41,523 nt of DNA from a virus (taxonomy: Duplodnaviria > Caudoviricetes), in the IMG/VR virus record IMGVR_UViG_3300022930_000007, positions 1-41,523 of that record, one strand, 5' to 3'. Of the stretch, positions 2,121 through 39,210 are shown in pieces; position 1 is the stretch's first letter; each line of letters opens with the position of its first letter. The notes under the pieces were generated by a model that saw nothing but the letters and a program-made list of their open reading frames with translations, had not been told where the DNA came from and made no database searches. The translations under genes were made by a program, and so were the position numbers.

Positions 2121-2393
2121 ATGAAACACAAATCAATACAGCTTATAAATCAAATACACCTTGATGTTGTTCAATCTACAAATTACCAAAAGAACATTAA
2201 CGCTTATGGTGAACATTCGGATACATGCTTAATTTGCGGCAAAAGAGTAAAAGATATTACAAAATCTAAATTAGTTCATTTACTAACTAATGGTAATTTA
2301 ATAAGCACAGATGAGGCCCATGAAGATTCTCAGGGTTTTTACTCAGTAGGTTCTGATTGCGCTAAAAAACTTATTATTTCATTTTCATTTTAA
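2121..2393 (+). CDS. Hypothetical protein, possible Zn-binding
   Basis: CLICG and GSDC motifs. Confidence 0.7.
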   Translation: MKHKSIQLINQIHLDVVQSTNYQKNINAYGEHSDTCLICGKRVKDITKSKLVHLLTNGNLISTDEAHEDSQGFYSVGSDCAKKLIISFSF

Positions 2394-8288: not shown

Positions 8289-9000
8289 GGAATTACCATA
8301 CTTCAAATTTTACATCAATGAGTGGGTCAATGGTGATATTACTCTCGAAGATTACGAATTGCAAGGAATATTCATAAATGTTTGCGGTTATTATTGGTCA
8401 AAAGACTGCGATTTATCTCTGATAAACTTGAATAAAAAATTCAGGGGATTTGAGGATAAAATTAAGCAATTAATTGACTCAAAAATAATTAAGGTAATCG
8501 GCGAAAATGTAGCTATATCGTTCTTAAACGAACAATTAGAGAGCAAAGAGGTGCAGATTGTAACTAACAGAATCAATGGCGCAAAGGGTGGTAGACCTAA
8601 GACAATAAAAACCGAAGAAAAACCGAATGGGTTAATTTTCGCTAACCGAAACATAACCGAAAGCATAACCGAAACGAAAGCGAAAGATAACCCAAACATA
8701 ACCAATATAGAGGAGAGTAGAGTAGAGAAGAGTAAAGAAGATAATATAAAAGATCTTTTTGATATTTTTTGGTCTAAGTATCCAGTTAAGGTTTCAAAGG
8801 CAAGTTGCTTCACTAAATTCAAAAGCCTTTCAGATGTTCAAAGGGGAAAAATAATTTCAACAGTTGATGCATTTGCTAAATGGAAACAGTTTGAAAATTG
8901 GACACACCCAAACCCACTAACTTACCTAAACCAAAAAAGGTTTGATGATGACTTAACCGTTCAATCGCAATTGCCTTTAAAATCTAAACTTCAATACTAA
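8281..9000 (+). CDS. Replication initiator-like protein (likely start MAKELPYFKF)
   Basis: PYFKFY..W..G N-terminus, NGAKGGRPK, FDIFWSKYP, HPNPLTYLNQKRFDD; upstream of the helicase; internal iterons. Confidence 0.75.
   Translation: MAKELPYFKFYINEWVNGDITLEDYELQGIFINVCGYYWSKDCDLSLINLNKKFRGFEDKIKQLIDSKIIKVIGENVAISFLNEQLESKEVQIVTNRINGAKGGRPKTIKTEEKPNGLIFANRNITESITETKAKDNPNITNIEESRVEKSKEDNIKDLFDIFWSKYPVKVSKASCFTKFKSLSDVQRGKIISTVDAFAKWKQFENWTHPNPLTYLNQKRFDDDLTVQSQLPLKSKLQY
8607..8706 (+). repeat. Iteron-like AACCGAA repeats, probable replication origin
   Basis: Five AACCGAA copies (three as TAACCGAAA at 11-12 nt spacing) plus degenerate TAACCC/TAACCA, followed by a purine-rich tract. Confidence 0.65.
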
Positions 9001-10754
9001 TGGAAAACCACACTTTACTTTCAAACCTTGGCATAGAGCTAAAAAATATCAAAACATCTGGTAAATGCCTATGCCCAAAATGCAGCCATACCAGGAAGAA
9101 AAAATCAGATCCATGCTTAAGCGTTGACATTGAAAAAGGAATGTACAATTGTCATAACTGCGGGTGGAAAGGATTCGTTTCTACCGACTCTGAAAAATCT
9201 GCAAAGGTGTACTCAGTTCCAGAATTTAAGAACCGCACAGAGGTGGATAAAAAGACAGTGGACTGGTTTTTCAAACGGGGCATATCTCAACAAACTTTGA
9301 TTGATTTTCAAATTACTCAAAGCTCAGAATGGTTACCGCAAACCCAGTCAAATCGAAACTGCATAAACTTCAATTATTTTAGGTCTGGAAACCTTGTAAA
9401 TATCAAATTTAGGGACGGCAGTAAGAATTTTAAATTAGTTAAGGATGCAGAACTTATATTCTATAACGTAGATTCGATTTTAGATAGCCTACAAGCGATT
9501 ATTTGCGAAGGAGAGATAGATTGTATGTCTTGGCATGAAAGTGGTCTTAAAAACGCTGTATCAGTCCCGAACGGAGCTAGCCAAAATCAGAAATTAGAGT
9601 TCGTCGATAACTGCTGGAAATATTTTCAAGATAAAGAACGGATTTATCTTTCTACGGATAACGATGAAAAGGGAATAAATCTTCGTGATGAATTGGCTAG
9701 AAGATTTGGATTTGAGAAGTGTTATAAGATAGATTTTAAGGAATGCAAAGACGCGAATGAGTACTTAGTTTTATACGGTGCATCAGCATTGGCAGACTTA
9801 CTAAATGATGCAAAACCTTTTCCTTTAGAAGGCGTGTTTACAGTGACCGATGTACATGATAAAATCATGGATATTTACTTCAATGGTTTACCTACTGGAG
9901 ATAAGACAGGAGATAAATTATTAGATGAACATATTGGATTTATGCCAGGGGAGTTAACAATGGTGACAGGTGTTCCATCGCATGGTAAATCAATCTACTT
10001 AGATCAGGTTTCTTTAGGTCTTGCAATTAATTCAGGATGGAGATTTGGAATATGTTCTCCAGAAAGTCACCCTTTAGAGTTTTATTATACCAGGCTTATT
10101 AAGCGTATTGTAGGTAAGAAATTCTCAAGTCACAATATTAACAGGCTTGAATTAGAAAATACTTTAGAGTGGTTGCAAGATAGGTACAACTTAATCTTAC
10201 CATCGGAGGGATTTAGTTTAGACTCCATACTATCAAAAGCAAAGAGTTTAGTTTTACGTAAAGGAATTAAAGGATTAATTATAGATCCTTGGAACAGAAT
10301 CGAAAACACATTACCGAACGGATACAACGAAAACAAGTTTATATCAGAGCAATTACTTAAAATAATTAACTTCGCTAAATCAAGTCAGGTTCATGTATTC
10401 TTAGTTGCACACCCTACTAAAATGCAAAAGGTAATTGGATCAGATAATTATGTAGTTCCAAACCTTTACAGTATATCAGGATCTGCACACTTCTTTAACA
10501 TGACGCAAAATGGAATGACAGTATATCGTAACTATGTAACTGGCATGACTGAGATACACATACAAAAAGTTAAGTGGGAGCATTTAGGTAAGATCGGAAT
10601 GGTCGAATATAAATACAATGAAGAAAACGCTAGGTTTATATCTGATGGTATCGAAGCCGATCAAAGCTGGTTAGTGGATAACTCTAAACAATTACCCATA
10701 CAAAGCGCATTACAACCTAATTATAGTTTCGATGAAGAAACAGCACCCTTTTAA
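9000..10754 (+). CDS. Primase-helicase (Twinkle/T7 gp4-like)
   Basis: Zn finger CPKC...CHNC, Toprim CEGEID/DNDEKG/KDANE, Walker A GVPSHGKS, IIDPWN, LVAHP. Confidence 0.92.
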   Translation: MENHTLLSNLGIELKNIKTSGKCLCPKCSHTRKKKSDPCLSVDIEKGMYNCHNCGWKGFVSTDSEKSAKVYSVPEFKNRTEVDKKTVDWFFKRGISQQTLIDFQITQSSEWLPQTQSNRNCINFNYFRSGNLVNIKFRDGSKNFKLVKDAELIFYNVDSILDSLQAIICEGEIDCMSWHESGLKNAVSVPNGASQNQKLEFVDNCWKYFQDKERIYLSTDNDEKGINLRDELARRFGFEKCYKIDFKECKDANEYLVLYGASALADLLNDAKPFPLEGVFTVTDVHDKIMDIYFNGLPTGDKTGDKLLDEHIGFMPGELTMVTGVPSHGKSIYLDQVSLGLAINSGWRFGICSPESHPLEFYYTRLIKRIVGKKFSSHNINRLELENTLEWLQDRYNLILPSEGFSLDSILSKAKSLVLRKGIKGLIIDPWNRIENTLPNGYNENKFISEQLLKIINFAKSSQVHVFLVAHPTKMQKVIGSDNYVVPNLYSISGSAHFFNMTQNGMTVYRNYVTGMTEIHIQKVKWEHLGKIGMVEYKYNEENARFISDGIEADQSWLVDNSKQLPIQSALQPNYSFDEETAPF

Positions 10755-13532: not shown

Positions 13533-14900
13533 ATGCAAATAAAAAAGGGCCTACAAGTAATGTTTGGCAAAACGATTCAATCAATAGGCAAGGCTTATCC
13601 AAATTTAGGCGCAGGGTTTCCGTTAGTATTCGGAAAGAAATTTGCATTATCAATCGCTGGCAATGATGCTTATAACAATAAGATATTCTATGCAGCAACT
13701 AACATACTCGTATCAAAGCTAACAGAAGCACCTATAATGTTCTCGCAGAACAAATCTAAGGCATCTAAGGCGCTATTAAATCATTTCTACAGTAAATCTA
13801 TAAGCAACGAGAAAAGAATCGCTCTAAAGGCTTTAAATTTAGAAGAGGTAGAAAACCATGAACTGAATAAGTTATTCGATAACCCTAACTCATACCAATC
13901 TGGAATAGAAATGATGCAGGACTTCTGGCATCAGTATACATTTGGGGATGGGTACTTGTATTTTGAGCCTATTGGCGATACGTTAAGCCGGAATAAGAAA
14001 CCTGTAGCTGTTCATTCATTAAGCCGAAATAGAGTTGAACCTATACAGTCAATGGATAATTTCGATAATATATCTCACTATGTATTTACCGCTTGGAATG
14101 GAACGCAGATTAGGATAGAGAAAGAATACATATTACACCTTAAACATTGGAATCCAAATATAGCCAGTTTAAAGGGGCTAGGAGTTGATGAAGTAGCATC
14201 TATTGATGTTAACCTTAACAGGCAAAATAATTTAATGCAAGGATCCGCATTCGTTAACGGTGGTAGGGGAACTTTGTTTAGTTCTGATAGCACAATCACA
14301 GCAGATGGTGAGCAGATTAAGAAGATGACTGCCGCCCAAATGTCCTCGCTTAAAGAAACGATGATGCGAGATTACCAGGGCGCAGAGAACTATAAGAAGA
14401 TGCACTTTACTAATGGATTGGTAAATGCTCAGAACTTTGGTGATACATTGATCGAAACAGACGCTATAAACGCAGAAGATTCTAACTGGAAGAATATTTA
14501 CACTATTGTTGGTGTACCTGTTGCGTTATGTCCAGCAGCAACTAGCTTTAGTGAGAATAGCGTTATTGTGGGCTTTAAGTCTTTAGTAACGAATAAAGTT
14601 ATACCTGAATTAAGAAAGTATGACCAAAAACTAAACAAAACAATCCAACAATGGTGGCCGGATATAATCGCTTGCCATGATTTAACCGAGTTTTCAGAGC
14701 TTGCACCTGACTTGAAGCTAATGAAAGAGGTTTATGGTCAGCCATTGCTTAGGGTTAATGAGCAACGTTCTATATTCGGATGGGATGATTTAGAAGGAGA
14801 GGAAGGTAAAGCGATATTAGTTGCATCAGGGTTTATGAAGCTGGAGGATTTATTAGGGGGTGAGTTTGATGGGTTAGATCCTAGTGATGAGGAGTTATAA
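13533..14900 (+). CDS. Portal protein (HK97-like)
   Basis: NPNSYQSG, FGDGY, ILHLKHWNP, GVP, VNEQRSIFG; follows terL. Confidence 0.9.
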   Translation: MQIKKGLQVMFGKTIQSIGKAYPNLGAGFPLVFGKKFALSIAGNDAYNNKIFYAATNILVSKLTEAPIMFSQNKSKASKALLNHFYSKSISNEKRIALKALNLEEVENHELNKLFDNPNSYQSGIEMMQDFWHQYTFGDGYLYFEPIGDTLSRNKKPVAVHSLSRNRVEPIQSMDNFDNISHYVFTAWNGTQIRIEKEYILHLKHWNPNIASLKGLGVDEVASIDVNLNRQNNLMQGSAFVNGGRGTLFSSDSTITADGEQIKKMTAAQMSSLKETMMRDYQGAENYKKMHFTNGLVNAQNFGDTLIETDAINAEDSNWKNIYTIVGVPVALCPAATSFSENSVIVGFKSLVTNKVIPELRKYDQKLNKTIQQWWPDIIACHDLTEFSELAPDLKLMKEVYGQPLLRVNEQRSIFGWDDLEGEEGKAILVASGFMKLEDLLGGEFDGLDPSDEEL

Positions 14901-15122
14901 ACTTGTCTGCTTAGATATTTTACACCAATCAGCACCATCCATTTCACAATTGTTCAAGAAAAACCAAACCCCATTATCATTAGTTGCATATATATGCCAA
15001 GAATCTTCGTGTAAATCTTGCATTAAGCCGTAATCGTATTCTATTTCTTTGTGATGATTACCTTTTAATGCAAGAAGTTTTATGTTTTTCCTTGATATAT
15101 AAGTTTTATGTATGTCTTTCAT
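14895..15122 (-). CDS. Hypothetical protein (antisense island 1)
   Basis: ORF track; convergent with the portal gene. Confidence 0.6.
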   Translation of the reverse strand: MKDIHKTYISRKNIKLLALKGNHHKEIEYDYGLMQDLHEDSWHIYATNDNGVWFFLNNCEMDGADWCKISKQTSL

Positions 15123-15144
15123 TATTATTAATTATTTACATTTT

Positions 15145-15252
15145 ATGACCGTAACCCTAGATGCTACCGATTTAATTGAGGCTTATCTAAAAGGCATGGA
15201 GGATGCTACTTTATTGTTGGTGGAGTTAAACACCCTAACCGATGATGATTAG
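15145..15252 (+). CDS. 35-aa acidic peptide (not in ORF track)
   Basis: MTVTLDATDLIEAYLKGMEDATLLLVELNTLTDDD; CACCCTAA/TTAGGGTG hairpin over its stop. Confidence 0.4.
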   Translation: MTVTLDATDLIEAYLKGMEDATLLLVELNTLTDDD

Positions 15253-15263
15253 GGTGAATGGAA

Positions 15264-15518
15264 CTAAATTAGTTCAATAAGCTCGGATGCTGTGATTTCC
15301 TGTTGAGAACACCATACCTTAAATTGCGATTTAACGGATTCAACGTAATCATTATTTGATCTTAATCTGTCAGCATTAAGTACATTCCTTTTCTCAAGAA
15401 TCTTGATTAGCCTAGCATTATGTTCAACATCTTCCTCTAATTCTAAATTAGTTAACTCTTGTTCTTGCAACCATTTATAATGGCCTTTAATGTAATTAGC
15501 GTTTACTTCGTCTATCAT
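15264..15518 (-). CDS. Coiled-coil hypothetical protein (antisense island 1)
   Basis: ORF track; minus-strand TATATTTG promoter at 15550-15543. Confidence 0.65.
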   Translation of the reverse strand: MIDEVNANYIKGHYKWLQEQELTNLELEEDVEHNARLIKILEKRNVLNADRLRSNNDYVESVKSQFKVWCSQQEITASELIELI

Positions 15519-19520: not shown

Positions 19521-20048
19521 TTACTCACCTGTTTGGGCTAAGTAAATTTCCTCTATTTGTTCTGGAGTTATGACTCTGCCATATTGGTCTATGTAGTTTT
19601 TATTTTCACAAGACACATAACCAAGAATAGATTTCAACTTAATTTTATTTTGATCTTCAATCCATTTTTCGGCGGCTTCTTTGGTGGAGAATAAGATAAT
19701 TTCTGTTGGTTTTTCTGGTATACTAAATACAGATAAAACAGGACTCATATACTTACCATTTTTTTTTAAAACAGTCCAATAGAAATTATCTTTGTGATAC
19801 AAATCAACTCCATCCTCTGACTTCATAATAAATTTACGTTCCGGTTTTTCCATGATTATATCAGCCCATTCTTCGCCATCAAAAATAGCATAATCATTAG
19901 TATCGTGTATTCTAGGTAAATCATATCCATCGGCAAAATGATATTCGCCAGTGCAAACTATTATACCGCCAAATTCACCCCATTGGCATTTTGTATCTTT
20001 AGGATACTTATCATATGCGTCTTTTAATAATTTCCATTTCTTTTCCAT
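19521..20048 (-). CDS. Hypothetical protein (antisense island 3; likely start MEKKW)
   Basis: ATG 3 nt after TATATTTG; SEDGVDLY and FSTKEAAEKWI motifs. Confidence 0.7.
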   Translation of the reverse strand: MEKKWKLLKDAYDKYPKDTKCQWGEFGGIIVCTGEYHFADGYDLPRIHDTNDYAIFDGEEWADIIMEKPERKFIMKSEDGVDLYHKDNFYWTVLKKNGKYMSPVLSVFSIPEKPTEIILFSTKEAAEKWIEDQNKIKLKSILGYVSCENKNYIDQYGRVITPEQIEEIYLAQTGE

Positions 20049-20051
20049 ACC

Positions 20052-20106
20052 CAAATATACCACACAATAAACCGTTTGCATCTATGTATTAAAAATGTTA
20101 CTTTTA
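20052..20106. promoter_or_regulatory. Divergent promoters
   Basis: Minus TATATTTG 20059-20052; plus TTTG-N20-TACTTTTA. Confidence 0.6.
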
Positions 20107-21724: not shown

Positions 21725-21991
21725 TTATAAAACTGGGTGATTCTTTAAAACATATTGGCTAAACTTCTGAAATAAAGGCTGAATAATAAAACTCATTTTA
21801 TCCCCATCAGGTTGTTTATTGTATTTCGGTATTTCTATGTTTTCCGAAAGAAGAAACTGCTTCATTATTTCCGTGCATTGATTCAATGCTTCATTTCTAG
21901 TATTCATAGTTACTTTAATTCTTTGGGTTCTTTGCAACCAAAGGTATATCCCGTTTAATGCTGTTTTCTTTGATGCGTATTGATATCCCAT
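21725..21991 (-). CDS. Hypothetical protein (antisense island 4)
   Basis: ORF track. Confidence 0.65.
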   Translation of the reverse strand: MGYQYASKKTALNGIYLWLQRTQRIKVTMNTRNEALNQCTEIMKQFLLSENIEIPKYNKQPDGDKMSFIIQPLFQKFSQYVLKNHPVL

Positions 21992-21993
21992 AT

Positions 21994-22281
21994 CTACCTT
22001 TTATTAATTACTTTTTTATACCTCAATAATCTACTTAATATAGAATTAAGCTCACCAACTCTTTCTGATCTTTTCTTAGATTTCTCTATCGCTTCTGGAT
22101 CATTTTCAACTCCTATATTTTTGTAAACATTAATTCTTCCTTTAACATCTAGAATCATTGTGTTTATGGCTTCTAATTGGCCTTGTTCAAATAGTGTTTT
22201 CATATTGTTATTTATAAAATAAGTTTTTTTTAATTCTGATGGGTTATCGACTATATCTAATTCCATTTCTAGATTTTCCAT
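21994..22281 (-). CDS. Hypothetical protein (antisense island 4)
   Basis: ATG 4 nt after TAACTTAG. Confidence 0.65.
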   Translation of the reverse strand: MENLEMELDIVDNPSELKKTYFINNNMKTLFEQGQLEAINTMILDVKGRINVYKNIGVENDPEAIEKSKKRSERVGELNSILSRLLRYKKVINKR

Positions 22282-23462: not shown

Positions 23463-23696
23463 TTATCTACACAGCCACCTAATTAATAGTTTTGCAGGCT
23501 CTGTTTCATTAAATAATGTCGCTCCCTGTTCGCTATGGGGTATTATAAATACAAGTGTTTCCCCATTATTTAGGCACGATATATATCTGTCATAAGGGTC
23601 TACCTTTGTAATAGTAACTTCAGGAGTTTGTCTAGCTGTTCTTTTGGCTAATGGATTTTCTCTATATAGAGCTTTTTTAATTTCGTTAGTTGTCAT
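23463..23696 (-). CDS. Hypothetical protein (antisense island 5)
   Basis: EIKKALYRENP...PAKLLIRWL; minus TAGGTTTG box upstream. Confidence 0.7.
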   Translation of the reverse strand: MTTNEIKKALYRENPLAKRTARQTPEVTITKVDPYDRYISCLNNGETLVFIIPHSEQGATLFNETEPAKLLIRWLCR

Positions 23697-29345: not shown

Positions 29346-29567
29346 TTATTCGAATTCAGCTCCAGCGTAACCAATAATTGTATCTTTTTCGTGTAATTTT
29401 TTAATAATATTATCATTAGTTTCTTTAAAAAGCGATTCGTAATAATGTTTAGCTTGATATGTTAAATCATTTAATTCGCTATCACGTTTCAATTTCAAAA
29501 AACAATAATCATATATTGCTTTCAAATCTGCTATTGATTGATTTTCCATATTATTCTGATAAAACAT
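29346..29567 (-). CDS. Hypothetical protein (antisense island 6)
   Basis: ORF track; start uncertain. Confidence 0.6.
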   Translation of the reverse strand: MFYQNNMENQSIADLKAIYDYCFLKLKRDSELNDLTYQAKHYYESLFKETNDNIIKKLHEKDTIIGYAGAEFE

Positions 29568-29838
29568 TTATTAAGTGGACTCCTACATAGTGTTCTTCTT
29601 CTTTAGTTGTAGATTTCCATTTATTTTCAGATGTTTCTGATAGTAAAGGCTGTTCATTGTCTAAATCTTCGTTATCTGATAATATCTCTTTATTAATTTC
29701 AATTACCATTTCTAAGGCTTTTATCCTAGCCAATTCTTTATTATTGACAAATAATTCTTTTTCATGATTTACATAAGGAGCATAATGACCTCCTTCGCAT
29801 TCCTCTATTTTAGTATAGAGCACTTGATATATTTCCAT
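29551..29838 (-). CDS. Acidic hypothetical protein (island 6)
   Basis: ORF track. Confidence 0.65.
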   Translation of the reverse strand: MEIYQVLYTKIEECEGGHYAPYVNHEKELFVNNKELARIKALEMVIEINKEILSDNEDLDNEQPLLSETSENKWKSTTKEEEHYVGVHLINVLSE

Positions 29839-29839
29839 A

Positions 29840-30004
29840 CTATATAGCTTTTAAGAAATCAACAAAATCTAACCTATCTCTAAGTTTTTGCATAATAATA
29901 GATTCTTCTTTAACGTCGATAAAATCTTTATTAGTTTGCAAATGCCATCTAAGATTTTCTATTTGGCGTTCGTACATTTCGATAATTTGTTTTACTTTTT
30001 CCAT
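29840..30004 (-). CDS. 54-aa protein, paralog of 30737-30955 (not in ORF track)
   Basis: MEKVKQIIEMYERQIENLRWHLQTN...DFVDFLKAI. Confidence 0.7.
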   Translation of the reverse strand: MEKVKQIIEMYERQIENLRWHLQTNKDFIDVKEESIIMQKLRDRLDFVDFLKAI

Positions 30005-30005
30005 G

Positions 30006-30329
30006 TTATAAAAATTTATATATTAAAATACATCCTACAGCAATAGCTAATGAAATTCCTAATACTAATCCCCATATAAAAGCCTCATTAGGATTGACTG
30101 CCCCATGATTAATTAACCTATTTTTAGGAGGTGCAGGTGGATTTGGTATTTTTGAATATATTAAATTAAATACTTCCATTGTTACTAAACCTGGTTTATT
30201 GCTAATAATAGTTTCGCTATTTGTATTGTCGTTAAAAGTTAAAACATACATATATTTATTGCCTCCTGTTTTCTGAGGCAGACTCATTACACTCATAGAG
30301 TATACTGAATCAAATAATGCTTTATTCAT
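30006..30329 (-). CDS. Hypothetical protein with C-terminal TM (island 6)
   Basis: Pro linker, then AFIWGLVLGISLAIAVGCILI. Confidence 0.65.
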   Translation of the reverse strand: MNKALFDSVYSMSVMSLPQKTGGNKYMYVLTFNDNTNSETIISNKPGLVTMEVFNLIYSKIPNPPAPPKNRLINHGAVNPNEAFIWGLVLGISLAIAVGCILIYKFL

Positions 30330-30483
30330 CTTTTGCTTTATTTATATTCTCATGTAGTATGATATGAAGAAATACTATTATAATAAATTCTCCAAAAGAC
30401 AACATTTGAGTTTGATTAAATATGTACATAAACATGATTATGTTTATTACCAAAACTGTTTTGTATATGCGATTTCTATTCAT
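30322..30483 (-). CDS. 53-aa hydrophobic peptide (not in ORF track)
   Basis: MNRNRIYKTVLVINIIMFMYIF...FIIIVFLHIIL. Confidence 0.5.
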   Translation of the reverse strand: MNRNRIYKTVLVINIIMFMYIFNQTQMLSFGEFIIIVFLHIILHENINKAKDE

Positions 30484-30500
30484 CTTTCTTATATGTTTCA

Positions 30501-30734
30501 TTATTTTAATCCTTCTAAATTAAATGCATAAAGATTAGCTTCTGGTATTAGTATTTTACAATTAATATAGTTTGATGTAAACATTCCTGGATTTACAACC
30601 GTAGCTGATTGTAATATTCCTCCATGTCTTTTCATTCTATCGGTTATAACTGTACGCCTGTATTCACTCATAATTGGCATTTCAATCAGAACGTATTTTA
30701 ATCCGTTTATAAGGTATATGATATCGTTTTCCAT
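30501..30734 (-). CDS. Hypothetical protein (island 6)
   Basis: ORF track. Confidence 0.65.
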   Translation of the reverse strand: MENDIIYLINGLKYVLIEMPIMSEYRRTVITDRMKRHGGILQSATVVNPGMFTSNYINCKILIPEANLYAFNLEGLK

Positions 30735-30736
30735 TA

Positions 30737-30955
30737 CTAAATGGCTTTTAAATACGTTATAAAATCTTTTCTTTCTCTTATTTGAGTGTTAATCAATTCT
30801 TTTTTAGATTCATTAATAATACTCGAGTTTGTTTCTAAATGCCATTTCAAATTACCAATTTGTCTTTCGTACATTTTAATAATTGTAACTATCTTATCTA
30901 ATTTTCTAGCGTATTCAGATAGAGTTATTGTAAGCGTGTCTTTTATAATAATCAT
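30737..30955 (-). CDS. Hypothetical protein (island 6, first gene)
   Basis: ORF track; promoter TTAG-N20-TAAGTTTG upstream. Confidence 0.7.
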   Translation of the reverse strand: MIIIKDTLTITLSEYARKLDKIVTIIKMYERQIGNLKWHLETNSSIINESKKELINTQIRERKDFITYLKAI

Positions 30956-38170: not shown

Positions 38171-38373
38171 ATCAATTTAGCTAAGTTAATTCCTTCTATT
38201 CTTGCTATCTCTTTAGCCTCGTATTCCTTTACACGATTAACAGTGAAATGCAACACCATAAAGCACTTGTCTACCATTTGGGTAGGATAAGCCAATGAGC
38301 GCACCGATCTAATCTCTGGTACTGCATGGTGGCAAATAACCGTTGTCCCGTTTGTGAATGTTATTTGGGTCAT
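38167..38373 (-). CDS. Hypothetical protein (island 7)
   Basis: ORF track. Confidence 0.65.
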   Translation of the reverse strand: MTQITFTNGTTVICHHAVPEIRSVRSLAYPTQMVDKCFMVLHFTVNRVKEYEAKEIARIEGINLAKLI

Positions 38374-38606
38374 TACCAGCTAATTTTAATTAGGTATTCA
38401 TTCCTGTAAAACGATTCTTCTGACAATTCATAACCATCATTAACTAATACCTTTTTTGTTTCTGTAGGTATTTGATCGTAAACCCAGCATTCGAAAGAAC
38501 CTTTATTAGTTGCTTCCTTTACTGATTTCATTACTTTACTATAAATATGAGTATCCGACGCTTCAGATACTAATTTACTTTTTAATCTTGCTTGCTCTGC
38601 GTTCAT
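38373..38606 (-). CDS. Phage hypothetical protein (island 7, first gene)
   Basis: MNAEQAR...KG...GY...IKISW, a common small phage protein pattern. Confidence 0.7.
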   Translation of the reverse strand: MNAEQARLKSKLVSEASDTHIYSKVMKSVKEATNKGSFECWVYDQIPTETKKVLVNDGYELSEESFYRNEYLIKISW

Positions 38607-38620
38607 TTTCTTTTCTTTTT

Positions 38621-38650
38621 AAAAACGGGTAGGTAACCACTCCTACCCGC
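38621..38650 (-). terminator. Intrinsic terminator/attenuator upstream of the 38606 gene
   Basis: Minus strand CGGGTAGG-N8-CCTACCCG-TTTTT. Confidence 0.75.
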
Positions 38651-38945
38651 TAACCTAAACCTCAAACTATGCCTTGCTTTATAACTATCCGTATTGTTTA
38701 ATATTGCTGCTTGCATTATTACGAATATCATTACTTACAAGGACTTTACCTTTAATAAGTTTGCCTTGCGTTACAATTACTAGCCAAACAAGTACCATTT
38801 ATTAAATAAATACAAACCAGCATCGTTATTAACAAGGACTTTGTGGCAAGTGGGATTTTACGAGTCCCTATACATCCGGTTATGCTTGCCTACCTTCACG
38901 AAACACTAACTCCATAGTTGCTACGATCTTTCTAATCGCTCTCTG
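38621..38945 (-). ncRNA. Candidate structured ncRNA or leader RNA with tandem repeat hairpins
   Basis: Bounded by a promoter (ATTG-N19-TACTATTG) and a terminator; three-way junction at 38845-38890; two long hairpins with conserved flanks. Confidence 0.55.
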
Positions 38946-38948
38946 ATA

Positions 38949-39047
38949 CAATAGTAAGAAGTATAATTGAATGTACAATGATTGTAACAACAATGGTACA
39001 ATAGATTTTATGCAAACATAACATTTCGAAACTTATTGCTATCTTAG
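38949..39047. promoter_or_regulatory. Divergent promoters plus operator
   Basis: Minus TACTATTG 38956-38949 and TATGTTTG 39020-39013; TGTAAC-AACAAT-GGTACA 38983-39000; plus TATCTTAG 39040-39047. Confidence 0.6.
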
Positions 39048-39066: not shown

Positions 39067-39210
39067 ATGTGTATACTAAATTCAGATTGTCCTACTGGGC
39101 ATCGTTGTTCTTCCGAATCAGGTCAATGCGTGCCAATTAGCGGTACTGTAGACCCAATTAAACCGCCTATAGTAAATCCTTTAGTGGAAGAACAAGAAGA
39201 TCAAAAATAG
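39067..39210 (+). CDS. 47-aa Cys-rich peptide (not in ORF track)
   Basis: MCILNSDCPTGHRCSSESGQCVP...; stop abuts the next ATG at 39211. Confidence 0.65.
   Translation: MCILNSDCPTGHRCSSESGQCVPISGTVDPIKPPIVNPLVEEQEDQK

What the first reader, a model, noticed from the sequence alone, without database searches (positions are those of the whole stretch)
38621..38945. Candidate novel structured RNA: two tandem hairpins with conserved flanks, variable cores and complementary bulges
Seen: on the minus strand, ~320 nt with no long ORF lie between a promoter-like ATTG-N19-TACTATTG and a strong terminator. Two units share both flanks. Unit A (38842-38757) is AAAGTCCTTGTTAATAACGAT-[43 nt]-AATTGTAACGCAAGGCAAACTT. 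Unit B (38747-38665) is AAAGTCCTTGTAAGTAATGAT-[40 nt]-AGTTATAAAGCAAGGCATAGTT. Each folds as a long imperfect hairpin closed by CCUUG/CAAGG. The cores differ in sequence but both still pair (GCUGGUU/GGCUAGU in A; UAUUCGUA/UACGGAUA in B). The 3' bulge of A (UUGUUU) is complementary to the 3' bulge of B (AAACAA). Inference: same shape with different sequence suggests selection on RNA structure. Possible roles are a cis antiterminator (HK022 put-like), an interlocking structural RNA (phi29 pRNA-like loop pairing), a protein decoy, or a two-unit guide array. I do not recognise the family.
Basis: partly seen in the sequence, partly recalled or inferred. Interest (0 to 1): 0.85.

Follow-up and report, generated by a model that had tools for sequence, protein, structure and literature searches.

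The report
Phage hairpin RNAs between tRNA mimics
A group of uncultured phages keeps an uncatalogued ~85-base RNA hairpin, with base-pairing preserved through many sequence changes, wedged between tRNA look-alikes that have lost a normal anticodon, and host tRNA-cutting enzymes likely release it as a free small RNA that would act as a decoy for a host protein.

Summary
The two units are real and belong to an uncatalogued structured-RNA family: 10 units in 7 viral records, 40-90% identical, with 8 of 17 consensus pairs kept through double-sided changes and no Rfam match. 8 of 10 units start right behind a tRNA-like acceptor stem whose anticodon arm is missing or spoiled (the window's is at 38891-38843). 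Where a mimic follows, it starts exactly 5 nt after the hairpin (3 of 3). Relatives shuffle the same modules: tRNA mimics, one or two hairpins, once a permuted tmRNA, then a FopS-like stretch and terminator shared with a bacterial chromosomal sRNA candidate. The bulge-bulge pairing is refuted: it is absent from both other two-unit cassettes, it is at chance level, and identical unit A occurs without unit B. Best reading (0.4): tRNA mimics punctuate an early transcript so RNase Z/P free a hairpin that binds a host protein through its invariant base and loop-E-like internal loop. Rivals: RNase III-type processing stem, put-like antiterminator, new ribozyme. No transcript has been seen.

The parts
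38949..38979 (-). Promoter-like site: ATTG (38979-38976), 19 nt, TACTATTG (38956-38949); predicted start near 38945
   Evidence: same box at +1938 before early ORFs; the Bacteroidota TAnnTTTG consensus is recalled
38906..38939 (-). Conserved leader: small hairpin (38939-38923) and ACUAUGGAGUUAG element (38918-38906)
   Evidence: ACUAUGGAGUUAG is shared with L023, L257, L440, L448 and L463; function unknown
38843..38891 (-). tRNA-like element without anticodon arm: acceptor-like helix, 3-bp D-like hairpin, T-like arm with degenerate 9-nt loop
   Evidence: fold (z -1.39 alone); inside the 143-nt, 82% match to L257, whose copy has a canonical GGUUCGAAUCC T arm; a different sequence keeps an acceptor helix and T-loop in L440/L463; ARAGORN and Rfam do not call it in the window
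38759..38842 (-). Hairpin unit A: G-C, bulged base, P1 (6 bp), 5x3 internal loop, P2 (5 bp), bulged A, P3 (7 bp), deviant UUGUUU bulge, apical stem
   Evidence: (81.5 bits, training sequence); identical copy in a contig of run X5
38671..38747 (-). Hairpin unit B: same architecture, family-typical A-rich 3' bulge (AAACAA); its closing C is the first base of the next module
   Evidence: (z -3.07); 83% identical to the L448 unit
38652..38671 (-). FopS-like single-stranded stretch beginning CAUAG, antisense to a start-codon-like sequence
   Evidence: 17 nt identical to a chromosomal sRNA candidate in 4 bacterial genomes; that candidate scores 31.3-31.6 bits on RF04319, cut-off 56
38621..38650 (-). 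Terminator-like hairpin with GGAGUGGUU loop region and only five U
   Evidence: (z -3.03 with the upstream stretch); the loop sequence also matches the bacterial sRNA candidate's terminator
38373..38606 (-). First of a block of small early-type ORFs, starting 14 nt after the U run; replaced by different ORFs in relatives
   Evidence: (phrog_8208, E 7.8e-05, unknown function)

Best explanation
[quoted passage not shown] Steps: (1) shown: the family, its fold and its position against tRNA mimics. (2) inferred: an early promoter transcribes the cassette, and the five-U terminator stops most transcripts while letting some run into the small ORFs. (3) inferred: RNase Z cuts behind the discriminator base of the upstream mimic, making the hairpin's 5' end, and RNase P cuts at +1 of the next mimic, making its 3' end. 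In the window, A and B have no mimic between or behind them, so they would stay joined to each other and to the FopS-like tail unless another nuclease cuts. (4) inferred, weakest: the constant face (AAG, bulged base, P1, a loop-E/bulged-G-like 5x3 loop) is the protein site and the variable upper helices are scaffold. Given its neighbours (tRNA mimics, a tmRNA, a host-sRNA look-alike), the partner is most likely a host translation or RNA-surveillance protein, such as an anti-phage ribonuclease.
For: Covariation on a plain MAFFT alignment of 10 units: 8 of 17 pairs with double-sided changes (2/500 shuffles reach it), 95.3% of cells paired against 33-46% when slid. A model built from 7 units found 3 units it had not seen, at 79.2, 50.3 and 22.2 bits. 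The base is constant while the upper helices are free: P1 is 100% paired with 3 of 7 pairs invariant, and 7 of 10 pairs of P2/P3 change on both sides. The loop reads N-A-N-U-A / R-A-M in 9 of 10 units, which fits isosteric versions of the AGUA/GAA loop-E motif (motif recalled). 8 of 10 units start 1-3 nt behind an acceptor-like helix, 6 of 10 have a TTCRA T-loop 14-16 nt upstream, and the other two follow another unit. The linker to the next mimic is 5 nt in 3 of 3. L463 alternates mimic-unit-mimic-unit-mimic-tail. None of the Rfam-scored tRNA-like genes has a normal anticodon arm: 6-nt loop, 54-56-nt insert, GAAA-capped extended stem. The L462 unit keeps its tRNA-like neighbour at a different locus, before a portal gene. 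Precedent for tRNA-like punctuation by RNase Z/P: plant mitochondrial t-elements (PMC1920247, passages).
Against: No partner protein is identified and nothing here tests binding. The window's own mimic has a degenerate T loop and folds only weakly. Units A and B are not separated by a mimic and could misfold across each other. L462 does not take the family fold as its MFE, and its AGUA/GAA is offset by one base. The ten units are related and partly mosaic, and the structure counted came from the same alignment, so the shuffle counts overstate independence. Unit B sits exactly where L257 and the X5 contig have a tRNA mimic, which also fits the unit being a processing signal itself. 8 of 14 related viral records lack the unit, so it is dispensable.
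Confidence: 0.4

Rival explanations
1. The hairpin is itself a processing or stabilising signal, an RNase III-type stem like the T7 early sites, interchangeable with the tRNA mimics; the real cargo is the FopS-like tail and the mimics.
For: Lower stem, asymmetric internal loop and an 11-12-bp upper helix; internal loops can limit RNase III to one cut and leave a protective hairpin (PMC1540722, passages). Unit B occupies the slot that a Leu-type mimic holds in L257 and in the X5 contig, directly before the tail.
Against: The base sequence is nearly invariant across units only 40-50% identical overall, whereas aligned E. coli RNase III substrates showed no conserved sequence. A cut would be redundant 2 nt behind a predicted RNase Z site. 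The window and L440 carry tandem units with no cargo between them.
Confidence: 0.22
2. The hairpin is a cis-acting antiterminator (works like HK022 put) that lets RNA polymerase read through the cassette terminator into the early ORFs.
For: It lies between an early-type promoter and a five-U terminator, and the next ORF starts 14-18 nt later with no room for its own promoter (5 of 5). By eye, 5 of 7 distant relatives inspected have the promoter running straight into ORFs with neither cassette nor terminator. put works ~270 nt from its promoter and without tethering (PMC9378689, passages), so neither variable position nor cleavage excludes it.
Against: put is ~70 nt of two adjacent stems that together form the binding surface; this is one long hairpin, single in 4 of 7 records. 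A five-U terminator may leak unaided. Exact abutment to tRNA ends is not needed for antitermination.
Confidence: 0.12
3. The hairpin is a new small self-cleaving ribozyme that makes the 3' end of the upstream tRNA mimic, playing the role that theta ribozymes play.
For: Its 5' boundary lies at a tRNA-like 3' end in 8 of 10 units; theta ribozymes are defined by a cleavage site within 5 nt of a tRNA end (PMC10879173, passages). It has invariant unpaired bases and an A-rich bulge.
Against: The fold is an extended hairpin with no nested double pseudoknot; no Rfam ribozyme match; no hammerhead core inside any unit (the one CUGANGA hit lies behind the L448 unit) and no hairpin-ribozyme loop-B motif; two units have no tRNA in front.
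Confidence: 0.08
4. The base mimics helix P4 of RNase P RNA and titrates the RNase P protein or a P4-binding factor.
For: The bacterial RNase P RNA in G262 has AAAG-U-CCGGG paired with CCCGG-C; the units have AAAG-U-CCUUG paired with CAAGG-C, the same G-C, bulge, five-pair pattern.
Against: The bulged base is U in 7, C in 2 and A in 1 of 10 units. The GAGG before it, the ACAGAA and the UUA of the host RNA are missing. Inhibiting RNase P would work against the cassette's own predicted processing.
Confidence: 0.06
5. The two units interlock through complementary 3' bulges (phi29 pRNA-like), or form a two-unit guide array.
For: The window's bulges can form 6 pairs.
Against: Longest pairing run 2 in L440 and 1 in L463; self-pairing 0-2 in the four single-unit cassettes (bulges assigned by eye); chance level 55%; identical unit A occurs without B; the variable cores pair within each unit; no Cas or other RNA-guided effector was named among the window ORFs scanned (56 against PHROGs, 40 against Pfam), though many have no family.
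Confidence: 0.03

Closest known systems
Phage T4 tRNA-region small RNAs RNAC and RNAD (PMC3014915, one passage read)
   Same: Small non-coding RNAs of unknown role transcribed from a phage tRNA region.
   Different: Here the neighbours are anticodon-defective mimics, not working tRNAs; units come in one or two shuffled copies; no sequence comparison with RNAC/D was made beyond blastn of the cassette against GenBank phages, which found no unit match.
Plant mitochondrial t-elements (PMC1920247, passages)
   Same: Non-canonical tRNA-like folds whose ends coincide with the ends of neighbouring RNAs, cut by RNase Z and RNase P.
   Different: There they end mRNAs and the cuts are mapped; here they flank small RNAs in a phage and the cuts are only predicted.
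FopS sRNAs of Bacteroides thetaiotaomicron (RF04319; PMC11697453, passages and section 12)
   Same: For the 3' module only: single-stranded stretch antisense to a start-codon region followed by a terminator; a FopS sequence in a phage is noted in that paper.
   Different: Scores are far below the cut-off (17 bits for L257, 31 for the bacterial look-alike, cut-off 56); it is fused behind other modules; no targets were found.
HDV-like theta ribozymes (PMC10879173, passages)
   Same: A small structured RNA starting at the 3' end of a phage tRNA.
   Different: No nested double pseudoknot or J4/2 cytosine; the fold is a long hairpin.
HK022 put RNA (PMC9378689, passages)
   Same: Structured RNA downstream of an early promoter and upstream of a terminator.
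   Different: One long hairpin rather than two short adjacent stems; flanked by tRNA mimics.
Bacterial Y RNAs, YrlA (PMC4201824, passages)
   Same: tRNA-like module without a normal anticodon arm next to a long stem with a bulged base near its end.
   Different: No GNCGAAN0-1G motif, no Ro60 gene in the phage, and the tRNA-like part is a separate unpermuted module.

Membership tests
Any Rfam 15 family (hairpin unit) | Match at or near a gathering score | tested here: not met
   0 gathering hits in the window; no sense-strand hit on any unit in E-value scans of the window, L023, L257, L440, L448, L462, L463; one 25-bit opposite-strand hit to a human lncRNA model (cut-off 60) overlaps the L023 unit
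phi29 pRNA-like interlocking RNA | Conserved complementary loops between units or copies | tested here: not met
HK022 put | ~70 nt, two adjacent stem-loops forming one binding surface | tested here: not met
   one 81-89-nt hairpin in the 7 units measured; single in 4 of 7 records
HK022 put | Factor-free antitermination through the beta-prime zinc-binding domain | not testable with these tools
   needs transcription assays
Theta / HDV-like ribozyme | 5' boundary within 5 nt of a tRNA 3' end | tested here: met
   8 of 10 units, against tRNA-like elements
Theta / HDV-like ribozyme | Nested double pseudoknot with catalytic cytosine | tested here: not met
   the covarying fold is an unbranched hairpin that uses both ends; no Rfam ribozyme hit; pseudoknots were not searched separately
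Y RNA (YrlA/YrlB) | GNCGAAN0-1G or GGUCCGA motif near the 5' end | tested here: not met
   0 of 10 units
Y RNA (YrlA/YrlB) | Ro60 (TROVE) gene nearby | tested here: not met
   0 of 1 in the window's genome; relatives not tested
tRNA (window 38891-38843) | Anticodon arm with 7-nt loop | tested here: not met
   arm absent; 49 nt in all; ARAGORN 0
t-element | Acceptor-like helix plus T arm whose ends coincide with the neighbour's ends | tested here: met
   against predicted ends only; the window's T loop is degenerate
t-element | Cleavage by RNase Z/P | not testable with these tools
   no RNA data
FopS (3' module) | RF04319 score above 56 bits | tested here: not met
   17 bits (L257); 31.3-31.6 bits (bacterial look-alike); 0 of 5 over the cut-off
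FopS (3' module) | Single-stranded anti-start-codon stretch followed by a terminator | tested here: met
   CAU-containing stretch in the window, L440 and L023; AAU in its place in L257 and L463
FopS (3' module) | Pairs with start regions of target mRNAs | tested here: inconclusive
   no enrichment in bacteria (11 vs 18 control matches; 28 vs 43) or in the phage; true host unknown
RNase III substrate (T7 R1.1 type) | Roughly two helical turns of quasi-continuous helix, internal loop allowed | tested here: inconclusive
   7 bp + 5x3 loop + 10-12 bp + bulge + apical stem; box rules for Bacteroidota RNase III not tested

The most novel reading that the evidence does not exclude
These phages run a natural tRNA-punctuated RNA array: anticodon-dead tRNA mimics serve as exchangeable cut marks that release a new class of ~85-nt anti-defence decoy RNA (or a new non-HDV ribozyme) together with a captured host small RNA, so one early transcript delivers several RNA weapons against the host.
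Probability: 0.25. Interest if true: 0.85.

Novelty: new variant of a known kind. Interest (0 to 1): 0.62.

Why it matters
Small RNAs in phage tRNA regions have had no known role since T4 RNAC/RNAD. This family gives a compact test case: a covarying fold, a constant face to mutate, predicted ends fixed to the base, and natural variants with one or two copies. If the mimics are cut marks, phages evolved the same design as engineered tRNA-spaced RNA arrays (comparison recalled), and 'pseudo-tRNAs' in phage genomes would flag hidden RNA genes beside them. The 3' module suggests capture of a host regulator of the FopS type, whose known targets are outer-membrane SusC transporters (PMC11697453).

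Tried and rejected
Searches that led nowhere: the first two viral pattern scans were mostly chance (1 true relative among 237 loci; one search covered 9 of 64 parts). The one metagenome scan used too loose a pattern, covered 10 of 64 parts and gave no homolog. The GTDB species scan gave 17 matches, none with the family fold by eye (best nhmmer E 0.003, biased by the pattern); that pattern fits only 4 of 10 units. A pattern fitting 10 of 10 units found 0 of 401 genomes of the family of G262. Model searches of bacterial genomes (0 of 1, 0 of 68) scored few candidates per genome and show little. GenBank phages: no unit match. Expression: no RNA holder listed, which is no evidence either way. The downstream 77-aa ORF has one near-identical homolog only. 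Targets for the 3' stretch: no enrichment. The best own-genome duplex, at the primase/helicase start (-22.2 kcal/mol, about the 1% tail, best of 56), is not significant and could not be checked because 0 of 5 relatives carry that gene. Rejected by test: bulge interlock, guide array, Y RNA, theta and hammerhead cores, any Rfam family including 6S and SRP. A hairpin-ribozyme reading of the A-GUC start was considered and dropped (no G at the G8 position, no helix 2, no loop B; requirements recalled). Coding explanation: no ORF of 60 aa or more in the window stretch, and the changes between relatives follow base pairs; short ORFs in relatives were not compared one by one.

Full report
Setting. The window is a whole viral record with direct terminal repeats (127-nt end overlap). 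It carries siphovirus-type head, connector and tail genes, a primase/helicase and an endolysin; no integrase was named among 56 ORFs scanned. The major capsid protein is closest to Flavobacterium phages at 42%, so the host is probably Bacteroidota (inference). The finding lies on the minus strand between the tail and lysis blocks, ahead of small ORFs of unknown function.

Observation. The two units, their flanks and the promoter-like site are as described. Energy alone does not prove the fold. The 325-nt stretch has z -0.59, unit B z -3.07 and unit A z -1.09 with another MFE; trimmed to 84 nt, unit A does take the family fold. In tandem, a fold pairing A's 5' flank with B's 3' flank is 2.6 kcal/mol better than two hairpins. 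Rfam has no match at gathering level in the window and none on the units at E up to 10.

Relatives. Pattern scans of IMG/VR gave L023, L257, L440, L448 and L463. A covariance model built from the first 7 units then found the two L463 units at 79.2 and 50.3 bits and a distant one in G411 (L462) at 22.2 bits. That makes 10 units in 7 records, 40-90% identical. Of 14 related viral records searched with the second model, 6 carry the unit and 8 do not. It was not found in 401 genomes of one Bacteroidia family, with a pattern that fits all 10 units.

Structure. RNAalifold on a plain MAFFT alignment gives a G-C pair, one bulged base, P1 (6 bp), a 5x3 internal loop, P2 (5 bp), a bulged base and P3. 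95.3% of 169 cells pair (shuffles 82.3 +/- 1.6%, 0/500; slid controls 33-46%); 8 of 17 pairs change on both sides (2/500). These sequences are related and the structure was derived from the same alignment, so the counts are not probabilities; the three units found blind are the cleaner test. P1 is almost fixed in sequence, while P2/P3 are rewritten. The loop reads NANUA/RAM in 9 of 10 units; L462 has AGUA/GAA shifted by one base. This fits the loop-E/bulged-G motif as I recall it; it is untested. Above P3 lie an A-rich 3' bulge and a variable apical stem. L462 does not take this fold as its MFE.

The bulge idea fails. The window's bulges can form 6 pairs, but those of L440 only 2 and of L463 only 1, and four records have a single unit (bulges assigned by eye). 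Shuffled cores give an equally long complement 55% of the time. A contig in run X5 has unit A with no difference, followed by 115 other letters where B should be; those letters align to the Leu-type tRNA mimic of L257. Unit A is the family's deviant at this bulge.

Directly 5' of unit A (38891-38843) is a 49-nt acceptor-D-T fold with no anticodon arm. Its counterpart in L257 has a canonical T arm, and L440 and L463 keep an acceptor helix and T-loop with a different sequence. Across the family, 8 of 10 units start 1-3 nt behind an acceptor-like helix of 6-9 bp and 6 of 10 have a TTCRA loop 14-16 nt upstream (for the window and L257 the automatic search chose a different 5' partner than RNAfold did). 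The two exceptions follow another unit. Where a mimic follows a unit, the linker is 5 nt in 3 of 3. L463 reads leader, mimic, unit, mimic, unit, mimic, tail. The full-length mimics score 35-45 bits as tRNA but have a 6-nt anticodon loop, a 54-56-nt insert or a GAAA-capped stem; ARAGORN calls no tRNA in the window, L023, L440 or L448. L023 adds a permuted tmRNA (64.2 bits, cut-off 47). So the window holds one arrangement of a shuffled RNA cassette.

The 3' module. The 20 nt after unit B begin CAUAG and read antisense to a start region. A search of 301 Bacteroidia genomes with its complement hit 11 (18 matches for the reversed control). Four of the 11 are one chromosomal sRNA candidate with a promoter box, 17 nt identical to the window's stretch and the same terminator-loop sequence. 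A second search found 4 of 81 family genomes, the same four. The candidate scores 31 bits on FopS against a cut-off of 56, so it is FopS-like, not FopS. FopS represses SusC transporters by pairing at their start regions (PMC11697453, section 12). I found no target enrichment in bacteria or in the phage. The terminator has five U in 5 of 5 cassettes, and an ORF starts 14-18 nt later. Of 7 distant relatives read by eye, 5 run from promoter to ORFs with no cassette, one has a short remnant and one has other genes there.

Mechanism. Shown: the family, its covarying fold and its placement against tRNA mimics. Inferred: transcription from the early-type promoter, and release by RNase Z and RNase P, as for plant mitochondrial t-elements (PMC1920247, passages). 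Inferred and weakest: the freed hairpin presents its constant base to a host protein and decoys it; its company points to translation or RNA-surveillance proteins. In the window itself A, B and the tail lack internal mimics and would stay joined unless another nuclease cuts. I put this whole chain at 0.4. An RNase III-type signal (0.22) is favoured by B replacing a mimic before the tail. A put-like antiterminator (0.12) is favoured by the promoter-terminator-ORF layout, and put tolerates distance and loss of tether (PMC9378689, passages). A new ribozyme (0.08) is suggested by the theta-like position (PMC10879173, passages). An RNase P P4 mimic (0.06) rests on a partial pattern match to the RNase P RNA of G262.

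Novelty. Ten literature searches (listings read, nine papers opened by passage) showed no description of this hairpin or cassette; the library lacks most subscription papers. The closest precedent is T4 RNAC/RNAD, of unknown role (PMC3014915, one passage). PMC10690425 lists 8,495 candidate RNAs from IMG/VR. Only 3 of its 6 text-held supplements could be searched (no hit), and three larger files could not be read, so the family may be among those candidates. PMC11915505 (passages) counts 79 phage tmRNAs; I did not see their forms. PMC4201824 (passages) supplied the Y RNA tests, which fail. Earlier scan notes report FopS-like RNAs and tRNA mimics in other phages but nothing matching this sequence; they are unchecked leads.

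Verdict. A real, uncatalogued structured RNA inside a tRNA-mimic-punctuated phage cassette. Interest 0.62.

Noticed in passing
L023:2671-2913 (+): Circularly permuted tmRNA inside the same cassette (RF04321, 64.2 bits), in a phage with Bacteroidota-type promoters; the permuted form is described for alpha- and betaproteobacteria and cyanobacteria. The tag frame read by eye ends LRAVA; ARAGORN proposes another tag.
   Followed up: partly
L475-L478 (G201, G262, G167, G095), about 1420-1620 of each locus: Conserved chromosomal sRNA candidate: promoter box, an apparent three-way junction read by eye, FopS-like stretch and terminator; between efp genes and an ABC-transporter gene in L476. Not in Rfam at cut-off.
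   Followed up: partly
L440 about 1490-1470 (-); L448 about 2180-2200 (+): A second small recurring module, GAC-N-stem-GGAAAGAC-stem, with covarying stem (GCUUG/CAAGC against ACUCG/CGAGU), directly behind a unit.
   Followed up: no
L448:2220-2711 (+): HNH homing-endonuclease-type ORF inserted directly behind the RNA cassette (PF13392); contig ends inside it.
   Followed up: partly
L257:2996-2885 (-); L463:1711-1823 (+); contig in run X5: Leu-type tRNA mimic whose anticodon loop is replaced by an insert with a UUCG hairpin, nearly unchanged in three phages.
   Followed up: partly
L462:1420-1665 (+): Distant cassette at another locus, between a WYL_2-domain ORF and the portal gene: tRNA-like element with a long hairpin in place of D and anticodon arms, a unit, a hairpin, an AGAGCGUUUAAU motif like the leader of L023, and a terminator.
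   Followed up: partly
window 39067-39210 (+): 47-aa Cys/Pro-rich ORF ahead of the lysis-side membrane genes, with look-alikes at the same place in L023, L257, L272, L440 and L448.
   Followed up: no
window 14895-15518, 19521-20081, 21725-22281, 23463-23696, 29346-30955 (-): Several blocks of small minus-strand ORFs with no PHROG family are interleaved with the structural genes.
   Followed up: no
window 8970-9012 (+): Start region of the primase/helicase gene pairs best with the 3' stretch (-22.2 kcal/mol) but is not significant as best of 56.
   Followed up: partly
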